Positions 1 to 3,000 of a DNA stretch of 39,792 nucleotides are shown here, in pieces. Within the stretch, counting starts at the first letter, position 1, and each line of letters starts with the position of its first letter. The DNA is from a virus. Taxonomy: Duplodnaviria; Heunggongvirae; Uroviricota; Caudoviricetes. The stretch spans positions 1 through 39,792 of the IMG/VR virus record IMGVR_UViG_2703718791_000008. One strand, given 5' to 3'. The position numbers are program-made.

Positions 1-3000
1 AGCGAGCATCGTTGATGATGTAGGTGATCACCCCGAACACCGGACGCGATGTGTCTGATGCTTCATTCTTGTCAGGCAACCTCTCTCGCTTGCCATTACC
101 CAGATTCTCCAGGTGAGGCTCTGGGTGGATGCGATATCTTTTAATGCGGAACTCTCCTCCGTCAGCGCAAACCAGCAATGACCCATCACACGGGCTCAAT
201 GATGCGTCTACAACAAGCAAAGCACCCCTCAGGATACCTTCACGATAATGCGTCGCACCGGCACGCATGAAGTACGTAGCAGCTGGCCTGGTTATGATGC
301 GCTGGTCTAATGATATGCGCTGCTCAACGTAGTCTTGCGCTGGACTCGGGAATCCCATGATGCACCTCCGATAGTTACTGTATACATATACAGCATTACC
401 GATCTGCGGCATCGATCAAGAGCAACAAGTGAGAAAAGGCTTAAGTGAAGATAAATGCTGCAAATTTAATCCTCAAAATCCCTAGCCATGCTGAATGCTA
501 TGTTTGTCTGAGCATTTACCCCAACAATCCATCGCCCACTCTGCAGTGGGGGTTACTCCCGAGTCTTGATAGCGTGTGCTCTATACTCTAAGTTCTTTCA
601 GAACGGTAATTTACAAAAACCAGCTTTATGGACTAATTGTCAATATCAAAGCTATAATGTATTTTTATGATTCCACAGGGCAGTCTAATGGTTGAGCACC
701 AATATTTATACATTTTCGGCATAACCATATTTATTGGCATGGTTTTTTCTTTACCTATATTCAAGTATCTTGATGATGAGGTACATGCCAAGAGAAATAC
801 TGGCATGGATGGATTGAGATATTTTCTTGCTTCATTTGTTGCTATTTTTCATTCTGACTATTTTGTAAGATATATCACGACCGGAAAGTGGGAAACAATA
901 TACAACGACATAAGCTACATAGCTCAGTTTGCAGTGTCGATCTTCTTTATGATAACTGCGTTTTTATTCTGGGGGAAAATTTCTAAAAAGGAAGATGTTG
1001 ACTGGGTCAATCTATACAAAGATAGATTATTTAGGATAGCTCCCGCTACAATATTCACCGCACTGATTTCTATAGTCATAATATTGTATTTAACAAACTA
1101 CCCAAACCCATCAAATTACCTACATGCAAAGGACGTATTTAGGTGGATGGATATGGGATTATTTTACAATTATCCACCAATGAACTACTTCAAGGACTCT
1201 TGGATTTTTCTTGGTGTCTTTTGGACGCTGCAATGGGAATGGGGATTCTATTTTTCTCTGCCGTTACTATATCTCTTCAGAAAAAATGGAACAGCTTTTG
1301 TTCTGGCTCTGATGTTTATATTTGTTTACTTAATTGGATTCATACCCGCACTTAACAATATAAAAGCAGGAATATGTATATTATTTGTTGCGGGTATGTT
1401 GTGTTATGAACTAATTGGTAAGGTTAGGCTAAATAAAATAACGTGCGAGATTATTTTATTGGTCAGTTTGGTTGGGATTTTCACTTATCAACCAGAGCTA
1501 TACTCGACCACTATGCTGCCATGGTATTTTTGCATGCTATTTTCGATATGCAAAGGAGCCAATTTATTTGGCGTGCTATCATTTAATGGTTTCGTAAGGC
1601 TTGGAAACGCCAGTTTTAGCATTTATGTTTTACACAGCGTTGTTTTGTACACGCTTTTCACTTGGATGCATACGAGTAATATAATAAATGAGCCAGAAGA
1701 CTTTAGGGTTATTTATTTAATTGGCAGCTTTGGAATGGTTTGTGTGATTTCATCTTTATGTTACGCATTGATAGAAAGGCCATTCATTAATCTTGGCAGG
1801 AAAGTTAAATTATAAAGAAAGGGGCTAAAAGCCCCTTTCTTTTGGGATGGAAAGATAACACCCAGCATGATTTAGCATGCCATATCAGATTTATAATCAC
1901 ACTGGCTCATCAAAATCACACTCTGGGCAAATCCAGCATTGGAAGCCGTAGCGCTCTCCCTGATACATTTGCGTTCCACATATGGGGCAAAATCTTATCT
2001 CGGAGGCTGGATTTGACGCCTGGTTTTCGTTTTCTGGTGACGCATTAGAATCTGCCATGATTTTCTCCATTAAACAGGATATTGAGCAATAATCGCAGCC
2101 CTGTCATTTGCATACTGCAATTTTCTTGCATTGATCTGTGCTAGGATGGAGTCCTTTTTTGCTGTCTCATTAACACCACCATTAACGGCTGCAGATAACC
2201 ACATCCTGTTTAGTTTCTCAATATCATCCTGATATTCGCTGCTAAGTGAAGAAAGCGCTGATTTTCTCAGTTCAGAATTAGGTGGAGCTAACCTGTCTAC
2301 CCAAGAAGGCATTCCATTAACGACACCTAGTTGTTTACCTTCAGGTGGCGCTGATGTAAATGTCTGAAAAACCATATCATCAATTTCAATGATATCAGAT
2401 AGATCCCATCCAGCATTTTCATAATCATGAAGCATAACCTTTGGGAAAAAAGCTAAATGCATTGTTGACCAAACATAATTAGACATATCAAATCCCCATC
2501 GCTACCCAAAAAATACCATAAGTGCCGACTGAAAGGTTTGTGTATACATTTACGGCCGAGTTACTAACAAAGTCACCCATCAGAATGGGTGCGTTAGTCG
2601 TTTCCTGACTTCCATTTCGATATGTCAAAGAGATAGAGTAACCAGCTCTAGGGAATGGAATTGGCAAGTTTATTCTAGTTCCCGATACCCCACCAGGAAG
2701 ATTCGTTGAGCCGAATTGAAGTATATCCCCCCCAGGGAGTTTGAACCAACCAGTTCCACTACCATATGAATTTGGGAAAAAAGACATGTCTGGAATTTGA
2801 GGGGTCGGAGTACCAAACCCTTCATTCCCCACGTTTCTTGTAGAAGCCGTGCCAAGACTTAGTGCTGTAATAGCAGCCCTGACAAAGGCAGTCGTTGCAA
2901 GTTGCGTTGTGTTTGTTCCTGGGCTAGCAGTAGGGCCAGCTGGAGTTCCCGTAAACGTAGGGCTAGCTATTGGCGCACCACCAAGGAATGAAAGCAGATC

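What the first reader, a model, noticed from the sequence alone, without database searches (positions are those of the whole stretch)
600..1850. AT-rich membrane acyltransferase gene next to the tail fibre genes (possible serotype-converting O-antigen acetylase)
A 382-aa polytopic membrane protein with acyltransferase-3-type motifs is encoded on the opposite strand to the late operon, with its own -10-like element and terminator. Its base composition is markedly more AT-rich than the flanking phage genes. Phage-borne acyltransferase-3 genes typically O-acetylate the LPS O-antigen, which changes host serotype and blocks superinfection by phages using that receptor.
Basis: partly seen in the sequence, partly recalled or inferred. 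Interest (0 to 1): 0.6.

Follow-up and report, generated by a model that had tools for sequence, protein, structure and literature searches.

The report
Prophage O-antigen acetyltransferase gene, O5-linked
This is a cargo gene of a temperate E. coli phage encoding a membrane acyltransferase of the well-known kind that phages use to acetylate the host's surface O-antigen; the type is ordinary, but this allele is found only in serogroup-O5 strains, which predicts an acetylated O5 variant I did not find described in the papers I searched.

Summary

The gene lies in a ~1.47-kb AT-rich cassette (about 420-1890) with a conserved promoter-like site and a hairpin terminator. A related prophage lacks the cassette. 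It sits between an SOS-box humD gene and the tail-fibre assembly and fibre genes, one gene from attP/int. Sf6 oac and Sf101 oacB occupy the same slot. dN/dS is 0.08.

New result: all 15 carriers among 5426 complete E. coli genomes have an O5 or O5-derived rfb cluster. O5 wzy occurs in 35 of 5426 genomes. Carriers span at least 3 chromosomal backgrounds and 2 integration sites (a third site is seen in other assemblies).

Best explanation, confidence 0.7: a lysogenic-conversion O-acetyltransferase acting on the O5 antigen. The chemistry is untested.

It is a new member of a known kind and of modest interest.

The parts
420..1890 (+). The AT-rich cassette as a whole, about 1.47 kb. It is present here and absent from a related prophage.
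   Evidence: Isolate SC406 (L004) has humD followed after 107 bp by the zf-TFIIB gene, with no acyltransferase. Homology to the window stops at about 404-420 and resumes at about 1894. Cassette GC is 0.362; the rest of the window is 0.461.
420..628 (+). Conserved non-coding region upstream of the promoter, function unknown.
   Evidence: It is 87.6% identical between the E. coli and Enterobacter copies, against 73.3% at third codon positions of the gene (Fisher p 6e-5). The 48-aa ORF 445-591 is frame-disrupted in the Enterobacter copy. There is no Rfam match in this region and no GATC or ops-like motif.
629..658 (+). Sigma-70-type promoter-like site, TGGACT-18-TATAAT.
   Evidence: It matches 10 of 12 positions. 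The -10 hexamer is identical in all four aligned copies and the -35 hexamer in three of four. Positions 629-687 are 94.9% identical between genera. No transcript data are available.
677..680 (+). Shine-Dalgarno-like AGGG, 7 nt before ATG 688.
   Evidence: Read and invariant in alignment A5.
688..1815 (+). Acyltransferase-3 (AT3-only) gene, 375 aa. The longest ORF starts at 667 and gives 382 aa.
1814..1843 (+). Hairpin terminator flanked by A and T runs, so it looks bidirectional.
   Evidence: The stem is 13 bp with dG -19.7 kcal/mol, and the Enterobacter-type copy L006 shows a compensatory G-C to U-A change. The consensus scan also found it on the minus strand.
1..358 (-). Left neighbour, not part of the cassette: a humD/umuD'-like S24 peptidase gene cut by the window edge.
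   Evidence: Pfam Peptidase_S24. RefSeq names it 'HumD family translesion DNA polymerase' or 'S24 family peptidase'. It accompanies the acyltransferase in E. coli, in Enterobacter, and in a 40%-identical homologue's locus.
378..393 (.). LexA (SOS) box CTGTATACATATACAG in the humD promoter region.
   Evidence: Read. It fits CTGT-N8-ACAG (consensus from general knowledge). The box flanks are conserved in the empty-site prophage.
1897..2486 (-). Right neighbours, not part of the cassette: a 57-aa zinc-ribbon gene (1897-2070) and a 138-aa gene (2070-2486) whose relatives are annotated as tail fibre assembly protein.
   Evidence: Pfam Zn_ribbon_TFIIB matches the first; no family matches the second. 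The SC406 gene at this position is annotated 'tail fiber assembly protein'. Both genes travel with the cassette at 98.3-98.4% identity in the 9 carrier genomes listed.
2488..3381 (-). Tail fibre gene (297 aa, Gp53-like_C domain) with mosaic breakpoints at about 2527 and about 3148-3172.
   Evidence: Pfam. For the breakpoints. The C-terminal tip is only 39% identical to the fibre in carrier OkiPb01713.

Best explanation
The gene is a lysogenic-conversion ('moron') gene of a temperate lambdoid myovirus.

It is probably transcribed from its own promoter, independently of the late operon (inferred). It makes a roughly 11-helix inner-membrane AT3 (TmAT-fold) enzyme.

By analogy with OafB, HGSNAT and OacB, the enzyme binds acetyl-CoA on the cytoplasmic side. 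It passes the acetyl group through the membrane pore formed by TMH1-4, using R51, H62, R120 and R123. It then puts the acetyl group on a hydroxyl of the undecaprenyl-PP-linked O-antigen in the periplasm, before ligation to lipid A-core.

The predicted acceptor is the E. coli O5 repeat unit (Qui3NAc-Ribf-Gal-GalNAc). The expected consequences are altered O5 antigenicity and reduced adsorption of O-antigen-dependent phages, possibly including the carrier phage itself.

Shown here: the family, the fold, the conserved catalytic-site residues, purifying selection, the cassette structure, the genomic slot, and the O5 restriction. Inferred: the acyl donor, the acceptor sugar and position, expression in the lysogen, and the phage-exclusion phenotype.

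For: 2. Closest characterised relative. This is the O-antigen acetyltransferase OacB of Sf101 (30% identity over 89% of the query, E 1e-30). Its critical residues R47, H58, W71, F98, R116 and R119 correspond to R51, H62, W75, F101, R120 and R123 here.

3. Same slot as oac and oacB. In carrier OkiPb01713 the order is dacD | humD-AT3-fibre ... int | sbcB. Sf101 has int-orf17-oacB convergent with the tailspike gene and integrates at sbcB. Sf6 has int-oac convergent with the tailspike gene. Most carriers have the gene right after intS at argW.

4. Homologues keep this context. Homologues at 68, 42 and 40% identity lie next to tailspike or probable tailspike genes in other phage backbones. A 53% homologue lies about 0.6 kb upstream of a gtrA-gtrB-gtrC operon.

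5. Serogroup restriction. O5 wzy is in 35 of 5426 genomes. Fourteen of the 15 carriers are among them, and the fifteenth (X14-3) has an O5 cluster with an IS1 deletion of wzx-wzy. Fisher p is about 1e-31. Carriers span at least 3 core backgrounds (flank divergence up to 1.6%, intS up to 4.4%) and two integration sites in complete genomes; a third is seen in other assemblies.

6. Selection. dN/dS is 0.08 against the Enterobacter copy, and there are 0 non-synonymous against 6-8 synonymous differences among intact E. coli copies.

7. Composition. GC is 0.35, like oacB (0.34) and the O5 rfb cluster (0.34) and unlike wecH (0.47) and opgC (0.44).
Against: No chemistry has been done. I found no report of O-acetyl groups in O5 in the papers I searched, and I recall none from the published O5ab/O5ac structures (memory, plus PMC9912281 for part of the structure).

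Identity to any characterised enzyme is at most 30%, so acceptor specificity cannot be transferred. OacB S146, which is critical and lies in the periplasmic loop, is N150 here.

The O5 association could partly reflect shared descent or phage host range. Ten carriers belong to one lineage and the two STEC O5:H9 strains are one background.

The fibre tip next to the cassette differs between the window and the carriers. The phage's own receptor is therefore unknown.

Three lineages carry inactivated copies, so the function is dispensable. A 90%-identical copy exists in Enterobacter, whose O-antigens were not examined.

The promoter-like site is not statistically distinguishable from chance by the scan alone.
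Confidence: 0.7

Rival explanations
1. The enzyme acylates a different envelope glycan: enterobacterial common antigen (like WecH), periplasmic glucans (like OpgC), colanic acid or K capsule, or LPS core. The O5 link would then be a by-product of phage host range or shared ancestry.
For: AT3 proteins act on many glycans (PMC9558356). Identity to OacB is only 30%. Acceptor specificity cannot be read from the sequence. Ten of the 15 carriers are one lineage.
Against: WecH and OpgC are more distant (21% and 20%). No NCBIfam model matched the protein. Those genes have host-like GC of 0.44-0.47, against 0.35 here. The int-to-receptor-binding-gene slot, the gtr neighbourhood of a 53% homologue, and the tailspike neighbours are hallmarks of O-antigen modification modules. 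All 15 carriers have O5-type rfb across at least 3 backgrounds and at least 2 sites.
Confidence: 0.17
2. It modifies the O-antigen but transfers a non-acetyl acyl group, such as succinyl (as OpgC does) or another short acyl-CoA.
For: The AT3 family includes succinyl and other acyl transferases (PMC9558356 abstract). The donor was not tested.
Against: The nearest characterised relatives (OacB, and the other phage enzymes annotated as O-acetyltransferases) are acetyltransferases or annotated as such. OpgC is only 20% identical.
Confidence: 0.05
3. It is a decaying passenger gene with no present function, carried along in prophage remnants.
For: Copies have been inactivated independently. OkiPb01713 has a 1-nt deletion at codon 329. 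In 2013C-4974 ISEc8 truncates the gene after nt 955. MS 119-7 has an IS21 insertion. One carrier (X14-3) has lost wzx-wzy.
Against: dN/dS is 0.08 over dS 0.62 between genera. All 6-8 differences among intact E. coli copies are synonymous. The promoter-to-ATG region and the terminator stem are conserved or compensated. The gene is retained intact in minimal remnants where nearly all phage genes are gone (L030).
Confidence: 0.05

Closest known systems
OacB (O-acyltransferase B) of Shigella flexneri phage Sf101; OacC is a 97%-identical relative
   Same: Both are AT3-only enzymes with an extra N-terminal helix before the 10-helix core. They share the FFMIT-type motif 2. Six of seven critical residues are conserved. 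Both are AT-rich (0.34 against 0.35). The gene order is the same, int-(humD remnant)-AT3 convergent with the receptor-binding protein gene. A carrier prophage uses the same sbcB integration site.
   Different: Identity is only 30%. The critical residue S146 is not conserved. The host O-antigen differs: the S. flexneri Rha-Rha-Rha-GlcNAc backbone against E. coli O5. The carrier is a myovirus with tail fibres, not a P22-like podovirus with a tailspike. The product is untested.
Oac (OacA) of Shigella phage Sf6
   Same: It is an AT3-only O-antigen acetyltransferase moron with its own annotated promoter and terminator. It lies between int (argW-type IntS) and the tailspike gene and is convergent with the tailspike gene. 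R73 and R76 correspond to R120 and R123.
   Different: Identity is 19%, and tblastn does not find it at E 1e-3. It lacks the N-terminal extra helix. Its GC is 0.42.
gtrABC (yfdGHI) O-antigen glucosylation module of CPS-53/KpLE1 at argW and of serotype-converting phages
   Same: It occupies the same chromosomal slot, immediately after intS at tRNA-Arg argW. Like this gene it is kept in degraded prophage remnants. A 53% homologue of this gene lies about 0.6 kb upstream of a gtrA-gtrB-gtrC operon. The K-12 CPS-53 content is from general knowledge.
   Different: The chemistry differs (glucosylation through Und-P-Glc) and it uses three unrelated proteins.
OafA/OafB (GtrC family II) and OatA: AT3-SGNH fusion acetyltransferases
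   Same: They share the AT3/TmAT membrane domain and the conserved TMH1 Arg/His and TMH3 RxxR residues. OafB is also prophage-borne and protects against phage BTP1 (PMC9558356).
   Different: This protein has no 11th C-terminal helix and no periplasmic SGNH domain. It ends right after TMH10.
Human HGSNAT and fungal GWT1 (solved TmAT-fold structures)
   Different: Identity is 10-14%, the acceptors are different, and the proteins carry extra domains. They are relevant only for the mechanism.

Membership tests
Acyltransferase-3 (Pfam PF01757) / TmAT superfamily | Profile match above the curated threshold | tested here: met
   102.3 bits against a cut-off of 31, with residues 45-362 covering profile positions 2-322 of 326.
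Acyltransferase-3 (Pfam PF01757) / TmAT superfamily | 10-TMH core fold with a long periplasmic TMH3-4 loop | tested here: met
Acyltransferase-3 (Pfam PF01757) / TmAT superfamily | TMH1 DxxR motif with a downstream His, and TMH3 RxxR | tested here: met
   D48, R51 and H62 are invariant in the alignment with OacB, Oac, WecH and OpgC. R123 is invariant, and R120 is conserved in 9 of 10 sequences.
Acyltransferase-3 (Pfam PF01757) / TmAT superfamily | V-x-x-F-F-x-(I/V/L)-S-G-(F/W/Y) motif | tested here: inconclusive
   The sequence here is VSIFFMITAF. The FF residues are conserved, but Thr-Ala replaces Ser-Gly. OacB has FFMITGY and is active, so Thr is tolerated. The effect of Ala for Gly is not known.
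Phage serotype-converting O-antigen O-acetyltransferases (Oac/OacB type) | Residues shown by mutagenesis to be essential in OacB | tested here: met
   Six of seven are conserved: R51, H62, W75, F101, R120 and R123. S146 is N150 here, in the variable periplasmic loop.
Phage serotype-converting O-antigen O-acetyltransferases (Oac/OacB type) | Located between int/attP and the receptor-binding protein gene of a temperate phage, as an independently transcribed unit | tested here: met
   Transcription itself was not measured.
Phage serotype-converting O-antigen O-acetyltransferases (Oac/OacB type) | Restricted to hosts with one O-antigen backbone | tested here: met
   All 15 carriers have an O5 or O5-derived rfb cluster, and O5 wzy is in 35 of 5426 genomes. 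Caveat: there are about 3 independent chromosomal backgrounds.
Phage serotype-converting O-antigen O-acetyltransferases (Oac/OacB type) | Gene-dependent O-acetyl group on the O-polysaccharide, with a change of serological factor | not testable with these tools
   This needs NMR or MS of LPS and antisera.
Phage serotype-converting O-antigen O-acetyltransferases (Oac/OacB type) | Lysogen resistant to adsorption of the converting phage | not testable with these tools
   This needs adsorption and plaque assays.
Moron (Hendrix-type independent cargo unit in a prophage) | Present or absent between otherwise related phages, with its own promoter and terminator and atypical composition | tested here: met
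   The empty site is in SC406. Gene GC is 0.348 against a window median of 0.4635, the lowest of 774 windows. The definition of a moron is from general knowledge.
AT3-SGNH fusion acetyltransferases (OafA, OafB, OatA) | 11th TMH plus a periplasmic SGNH domain | tested here: not met
   The protein is 375 aa and ends after TMH10, and Pfam finds no second domain.
WecH (ECA O-acetyltransferase) and OpgC (OPG succinyltransferase) | Close sequence relationship to the E. coli enzymes, or an NCBIfam model match | tested here: not met
   Identity is 21% to WecH and 20% to OpgC. No NCBIfam family matches.

The most novel reading that the evidence does not exclude
The gene specifies an O-acetylated chemotype of the E. 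coli O5 antigen that I did not find described. About 40% of O5-type complete genomes carry the gene and about a third carry it intact. It has been switched off independently by a frameshift and by two different IS elements. 'O5' would then comprise at least two chemotypes that differ in phage susceptibility and antigenicity, including within the STEC O5:H9 lineage.
Probability: 0.5. Interest if true: 0.45.

Novelty: new member of a known kind. Interest (0 to 1): 0.35.

Why it matters
Phage-borne O-antigen acetyltransferases change serotype, vaccine epitopes and phage susceptibility in Shigella, Salmonella and E. coli O157.

This allele adds a concrete, cheap-to-test prediction for a serogroup that includes STEC O5:H9 and hard-to-target uropathogens. 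Strains typed genetically as O5 should fall into acetylated and non-acetylated forms according to one gene. That would matter for serotyping, glycoconjugate design and the choice of therapeutic phages.

It also gives a clean natural series for studying how conversion genes outlive their phages. The series runs from intact prophage through remnants to minimal remnants, includes three independent knock-outs, and involves three integration sites.

The enzymology and the genomic logic are already well known.

Tried and rejected
- NCBIfam scan: no family matched.
- PDB by sequence: nothing.
- The afdb50 library was unavailable.
- megablast against the phage collection: no DNA match. tblastn found only 5 records, so Sf6 Oac is too distant to detect in this way.
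- Rfam on 300-2100: only a sub-threshold sraA hit over the terminator (24 bits against a threshold of 56). I rejected it.
- A small gene in the conserved upstream region: the 48-aa ORF 445-591 is frame-disrupted in the Enterobacter copy by a 1-nt deletion and a 4-nt insertion. I rejected it as coding.
- Dam/OxyR-type phase variation as in gtr and oafB: there is no GATC in 420-687. The two GATC sites at 401 and 414 lie in the shared humD promoter region.
- RfaH ops/JUMPStart element: none within one mismatch.
- Slipped-strand switch: no homopolymer tract of 7 or more A/T, or 6 or more G/C. The OkiPb01713 frameshift is a single-base deletion at gene nt 985.
- My early idea that the cassette travels with the fibre's receptor-binding tip was wrong. 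Carriers share humD-AT3-zf and the 138-aa gene only up to window 2496-2527, and their fibre tips are only 39% identical to the window's.
- Whether the SC406 'empty site' is ancestral or a deletion cannot be decided. A 40% homologue also sits next to a humD homologue, so the locus is an old cargo slot.
- Literature search for O-acetylation of O5: nothing found.
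Full report
OBSERVATION. It is far longer than chance allows in this AT-rich stretch. In 2000 shuffles of 600-1850 the longest stop-free stretch averaged 76 aa and never exceeded 210 aa. RefSeq annotators and all homologues start the protein at the second ATG, position 688 (MVEHQYLY...). That gives 375 aa, with an AGGG motif 7 nt upstream. The gene has GC 0.348, the lowest of 774 gene-sized sliding windows in the 39.8-kb window, whose median is 0.4635.

The late genes, comprising baseplate, fibre and fibre-assembly genes, lie on the opposite strand. 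A promoter-like site, TGGACT-18-TATAAT, lies at 629-658. The scan alone is not significant, with 7 sites found against 7.2 expected. Conservation supports the site instead. Positions 629-687 are 94.9% identical between the E. coli and Enterobacter copies, while third codon positions of the gene are 73.3% identical (Fisher p 1e-4). Right after the stop codon there is a 13-bp-stem hairpin at 1814-1842 with dG -19.7 kcal/mol. In the Enterobacter-type copy it shows a compensatory G-C to U-A change.

THE PROTEIN. Pfam Acyl_transf_3 matches at E 3.5e-29 over residues 45-362, and PHROG 3333 'O-acetyltransferase' at E 1e-46. No NCBIfam model matches. AlphaFold2 run on a 49-sequence alignment gives a confident model with pLDDT 92.4 and pTM 0.91. 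The model has one N-terminal helix, ten core helices, and a long loop (136-177) with a short helix between core helices 3 and 4. That is the architecture described for AT3 domains (PMC9833829).

In an alignment with OacB, Oac, WecH and OpgC, residues D48, R51, H62, F93, F94 and R123 are invariant. Of the seven residues whose alanine substitution abolishes OacB activity (PMC8952252), six are conserved here: R51, H62, W75, F101, R120 and R123. The seventh, S146 in the variable periplasmic loop, is N150 here. There is no SGNH domain, so this is an AT3-only enzyme like Oac and OacB. Identity to OacB is 30%, to a P2-like phage acetyltransferase 26%, to WecH 21%, to OpgC 20% and to Oac 19%.

SELECTION. 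Against the Enterobacter copy, which is 90% identical in protein, dN/dS is 0.08 at dS 0.62. Among intact E. coli copies all 6-8 differences from the window are third-position and synonymous. The gene is therefore maintained as a protein.

THE CASSETTE AND ITS SLOT. A related prophage in isolate SC406 has the same layout, running humD, zinc-ribbon gene, fibre-assembly gene and fibre, but no acyltransferase. Homology to the window ends at about 404-420 and resumes at about 1894. Where the window has the cassette, SC406 has only about 60 bp of intergenic DNA, which includes a hairpin. The unit is thus a ~1.47-kb cassette.

Its left neighbour is a humD/umuD'-like S24 peptidase gene with a LexA box at 378-393. 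In carrier OkiPb01713 the whole prophage lies between dacD and sbcB, with the integrase at the far end. In the circular phage the order is therefore int-attP-humD-AT3-fibre genes. This is the slot of oacB in Sf101, which also integrates at sbcB, and of oac in Sf6.

Homologues keep the same logic in other phage backbones:
- The 68% homologue lies between int/Rha and a Tail_spike_N protein.
- The 42% homologue lies next to a 734-aa probable tailspike.
- The 40% homologue lies between an S24 peptidase gene and a tailspike.
- The 53% homologue lies about 0.6 kb upstream of a gtrA-gtrB-gtrC operon.

The whole clade is AT-rich (GC 0.31-0.36), like oacB (0.34) and unlike wecH and opgC (0.47 and 0.44). 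The structural backbone of the window's phage (about 3170-24800) is common in E. coli, but homology breaks inside the fibre gene.

DISTRIBUTION AND THE O5 LINK. The cassette occurs in 15 of 5426 complete E. coli genomes, always on the chromosome and at 99% identity or more. In most carriers it sits immediately after intS at tRNA-Arg argW, in degraded prophage remnants. In other assemblies it is also found at the bio-ybhB site. One of these is a minimal remnant in which only the S24 gene, the AT3 gene and the zinc-ribbon gene remain between ybhB and ybhC.

While looking for the O-antigen clusters of carriers I found that they are all serogroup O5:
- OkiPb01713 is O5:H9.
- 2013C-4974 is O5:H9 (PMC12113909).
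- NT1F10 has O5 wzx and wzy.

A search with the O5 wzy gene finds it in only 35 of 5426 genomes, and 14 of the 15 carriers are among them. The fifteenth, X14-3, has an O5 cluster from which IS1 has deleted wzx-wzy. Fisher's exact p is about 1e-31. This overstates the evidence, because ten carriers belong to one lineage.

Core flanks at argW show at least three chromosomal backgrounds, up to 1.6% divergent, and intS alleles differ by up to 4.4%. The two O5:H9 STEC strains count as one background, but in OkiPb01713 the inspected copy lies at sbcB. Under independence, three backgrounds all being O5 has probability of about 3e-7.

The 42% paralogue behaves similarly. It has five carriers, and the three whose serotype I could find are O156:H25, though these may be clonal.

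The gene is intact in the pig and cattle lineage, in X14-3 and in S1-INA-02-A. It has been inactivated three times independently: by a 1-nt deletion at codon 329 in OkiPb01713, by ISEc8 after nt 955 in 2013C-4974, and by an IS21 insertion in MS 119-7.

MECHANISM. The following steps are inferred from the family. The enzyme takes acetyl-CoA at the cytoplasmic face and passes the acetyl group through the pore lined by the conserved TMH1 Arg/His and TMH3 RxxR residues. It then esterifies a sugar hydroxyl of Und-PP-linked O-antigen in the periplasm (PMC9833829, PMC12423673, PMC9558356).

The predicted acceptor is the O5 repeat. The trisaccharide alpha-GalNAc-(1->2)-beta-Qui3NAc-(1->3)-beta-Ribf of O5ac is from PMC9912281, and the remainder is from memory. 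Which sugar and which position are acetylated cannot be predicted at 30% identity. The expected phenotypes are an altered O5 epitope and reduced adsorption of O-antigen-dependent phages, as for Sf6 Oac, BTP1 OafB and phiV10 (PMC9558356).

RIVALS.
- A different glycan acceptor such as ECA, OPG, capsule or core, with the O5 link caused by host range or ancestry. I give this about 0.17. It is not excluded without chemistry, but the slot, the neighbours, the closest relative and the composition all argue against it.
- A non-acetyl acyl donor, about 0.05.
- A functionless passenger gene, about 0.05. This is contradicted by dN/dS and by conservation of the regulatory signals, although repeated knock-outs show that the function is dispensable.

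COMPARISON AND NOVELTY. This is a new member of a well-known kind, the phage-borne AT3-only O-antigen acetyltransferase moron. Membership of AT3/TmAT is met on every sequence and fold criterion tested, except that motif 2 is the OacB-like FFMITAF variant. Membership of the serotype-converting class is met on residues, genomic slot and serogroup restriction. Its defining chemical and phenotypic features could not be tested.

What is new is the specific, testable claim that an O5-restricted allele exists, is retained in prophage remnants at three integration sites, and predicts an O-acetylated O5 variant. I found no report of such a variant.

One thing is left unexplained. The 209 bp upstream of the promoter (420-628) is 87.6% conserved between genera, significantly above third-position identity (p 6e-5). 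It has no coding, Rfam, GATC or ops signature.

Noticed in passing
window 420-628: The non-coding DNA upstream of the promoter-like site is 87.6% identical between the E. coli and Enterobacter copies, against 73.3% at the gene's third codon positions (p 6e-5). The only ORF there is frame-disrupted in Enterobacter. An inverted repeat AATGCT...AGCATT (about 495-517) keeps its arms while its loop varies. The function is unknown; it may be a regulator binding region or a leader.
   Followed up: partly
window 1-393: A humD/umuD'-like S24 peptidase gene lies on the minus strand, starts at 358 and is cut by the window edge. It has a textbook LexA box, CTGTATACATATACAG, at 378-393. It accompanies the acyltransferase across genera and even next to a 40%-identical homologue (L012). 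Sf101 has a 30-bp match to it between int and oacB (L016 4480-4509).
   Followed up: partly
window 2488-3381: The tail fibre gene is mosaic. Its N-terminal 129 aa are 68% identical to the SC406 fibre. Its C-terminal Gp53-like domain is only 39% identical to the fibre of carrier OkiPb01713. DNA homology to relatives breaks at about 2527 and about 3148-3172.
   Followed up: partly
window 1897-2070: A 57-aa TFIIB-type zinc-ribbon protein gene follows the 138-aa gene (tail fibre assembly-like). It is conserved in the empty-site prophage and is retained in minimal remnants together with the acyltransferase. Its role is unknown.
   Followed up: no
L012 9156-11066: Next to a 40%-identical AT3 homologue, the tailspike carries a SASA (sialate O-acetylesterase-like) domain. 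This phage may therefore pair an acetyl-esterase receptor-binding protein with an acetyltransferase conversion gene.
   Followed up: no
L009 240-6706: A 53%-identical homologue sits in a cluster with a second AT3 gene and a gtrA-gtrB-gtrC (GT_STM0557_N) operon near fliE. This looks like a compound O-antigen modification island.
   Followed up: no
L023 6953-9483; L027 8190-11068; L002 9289-10284: The gene has been inactivated three times independently in O5 strains: by ISEc8 truncation, by IS21/ISEc62 insertion, and by a 1-nt deletion at codon 329. This suggests recurrent selection against the gene, or relaxed selection on it.
   Followed up: yes
L030 9282-11371: In a minimal remnant at the bio-ybhB / ybhC (lambda att) site, only the S24 gene, the acyltransferase gene and the zinc-ribbon gene remain. 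All other phage genes are gone, yet the acyltransferase is intact.
   Followed up: partly
L010 8001-9119 and hits H98-H102: A 42%-identical E. coli paralogue lies next to a 734-aa probable tailspike. It occurs in only 5 complete genomes, and the three with a published serotype are O156:H25. This hints that each allele of this AT3 clade tracks one serogroup.
   Followed up: partly
NZ_AP042682.1 (OkiPb01713), second place reported: This O5:H9 strain has a second match to the cassette elsewhere in the chromosome. It may be an argW remnant like that of 2013C-4974. I did not inspect it.
   Followed up: no
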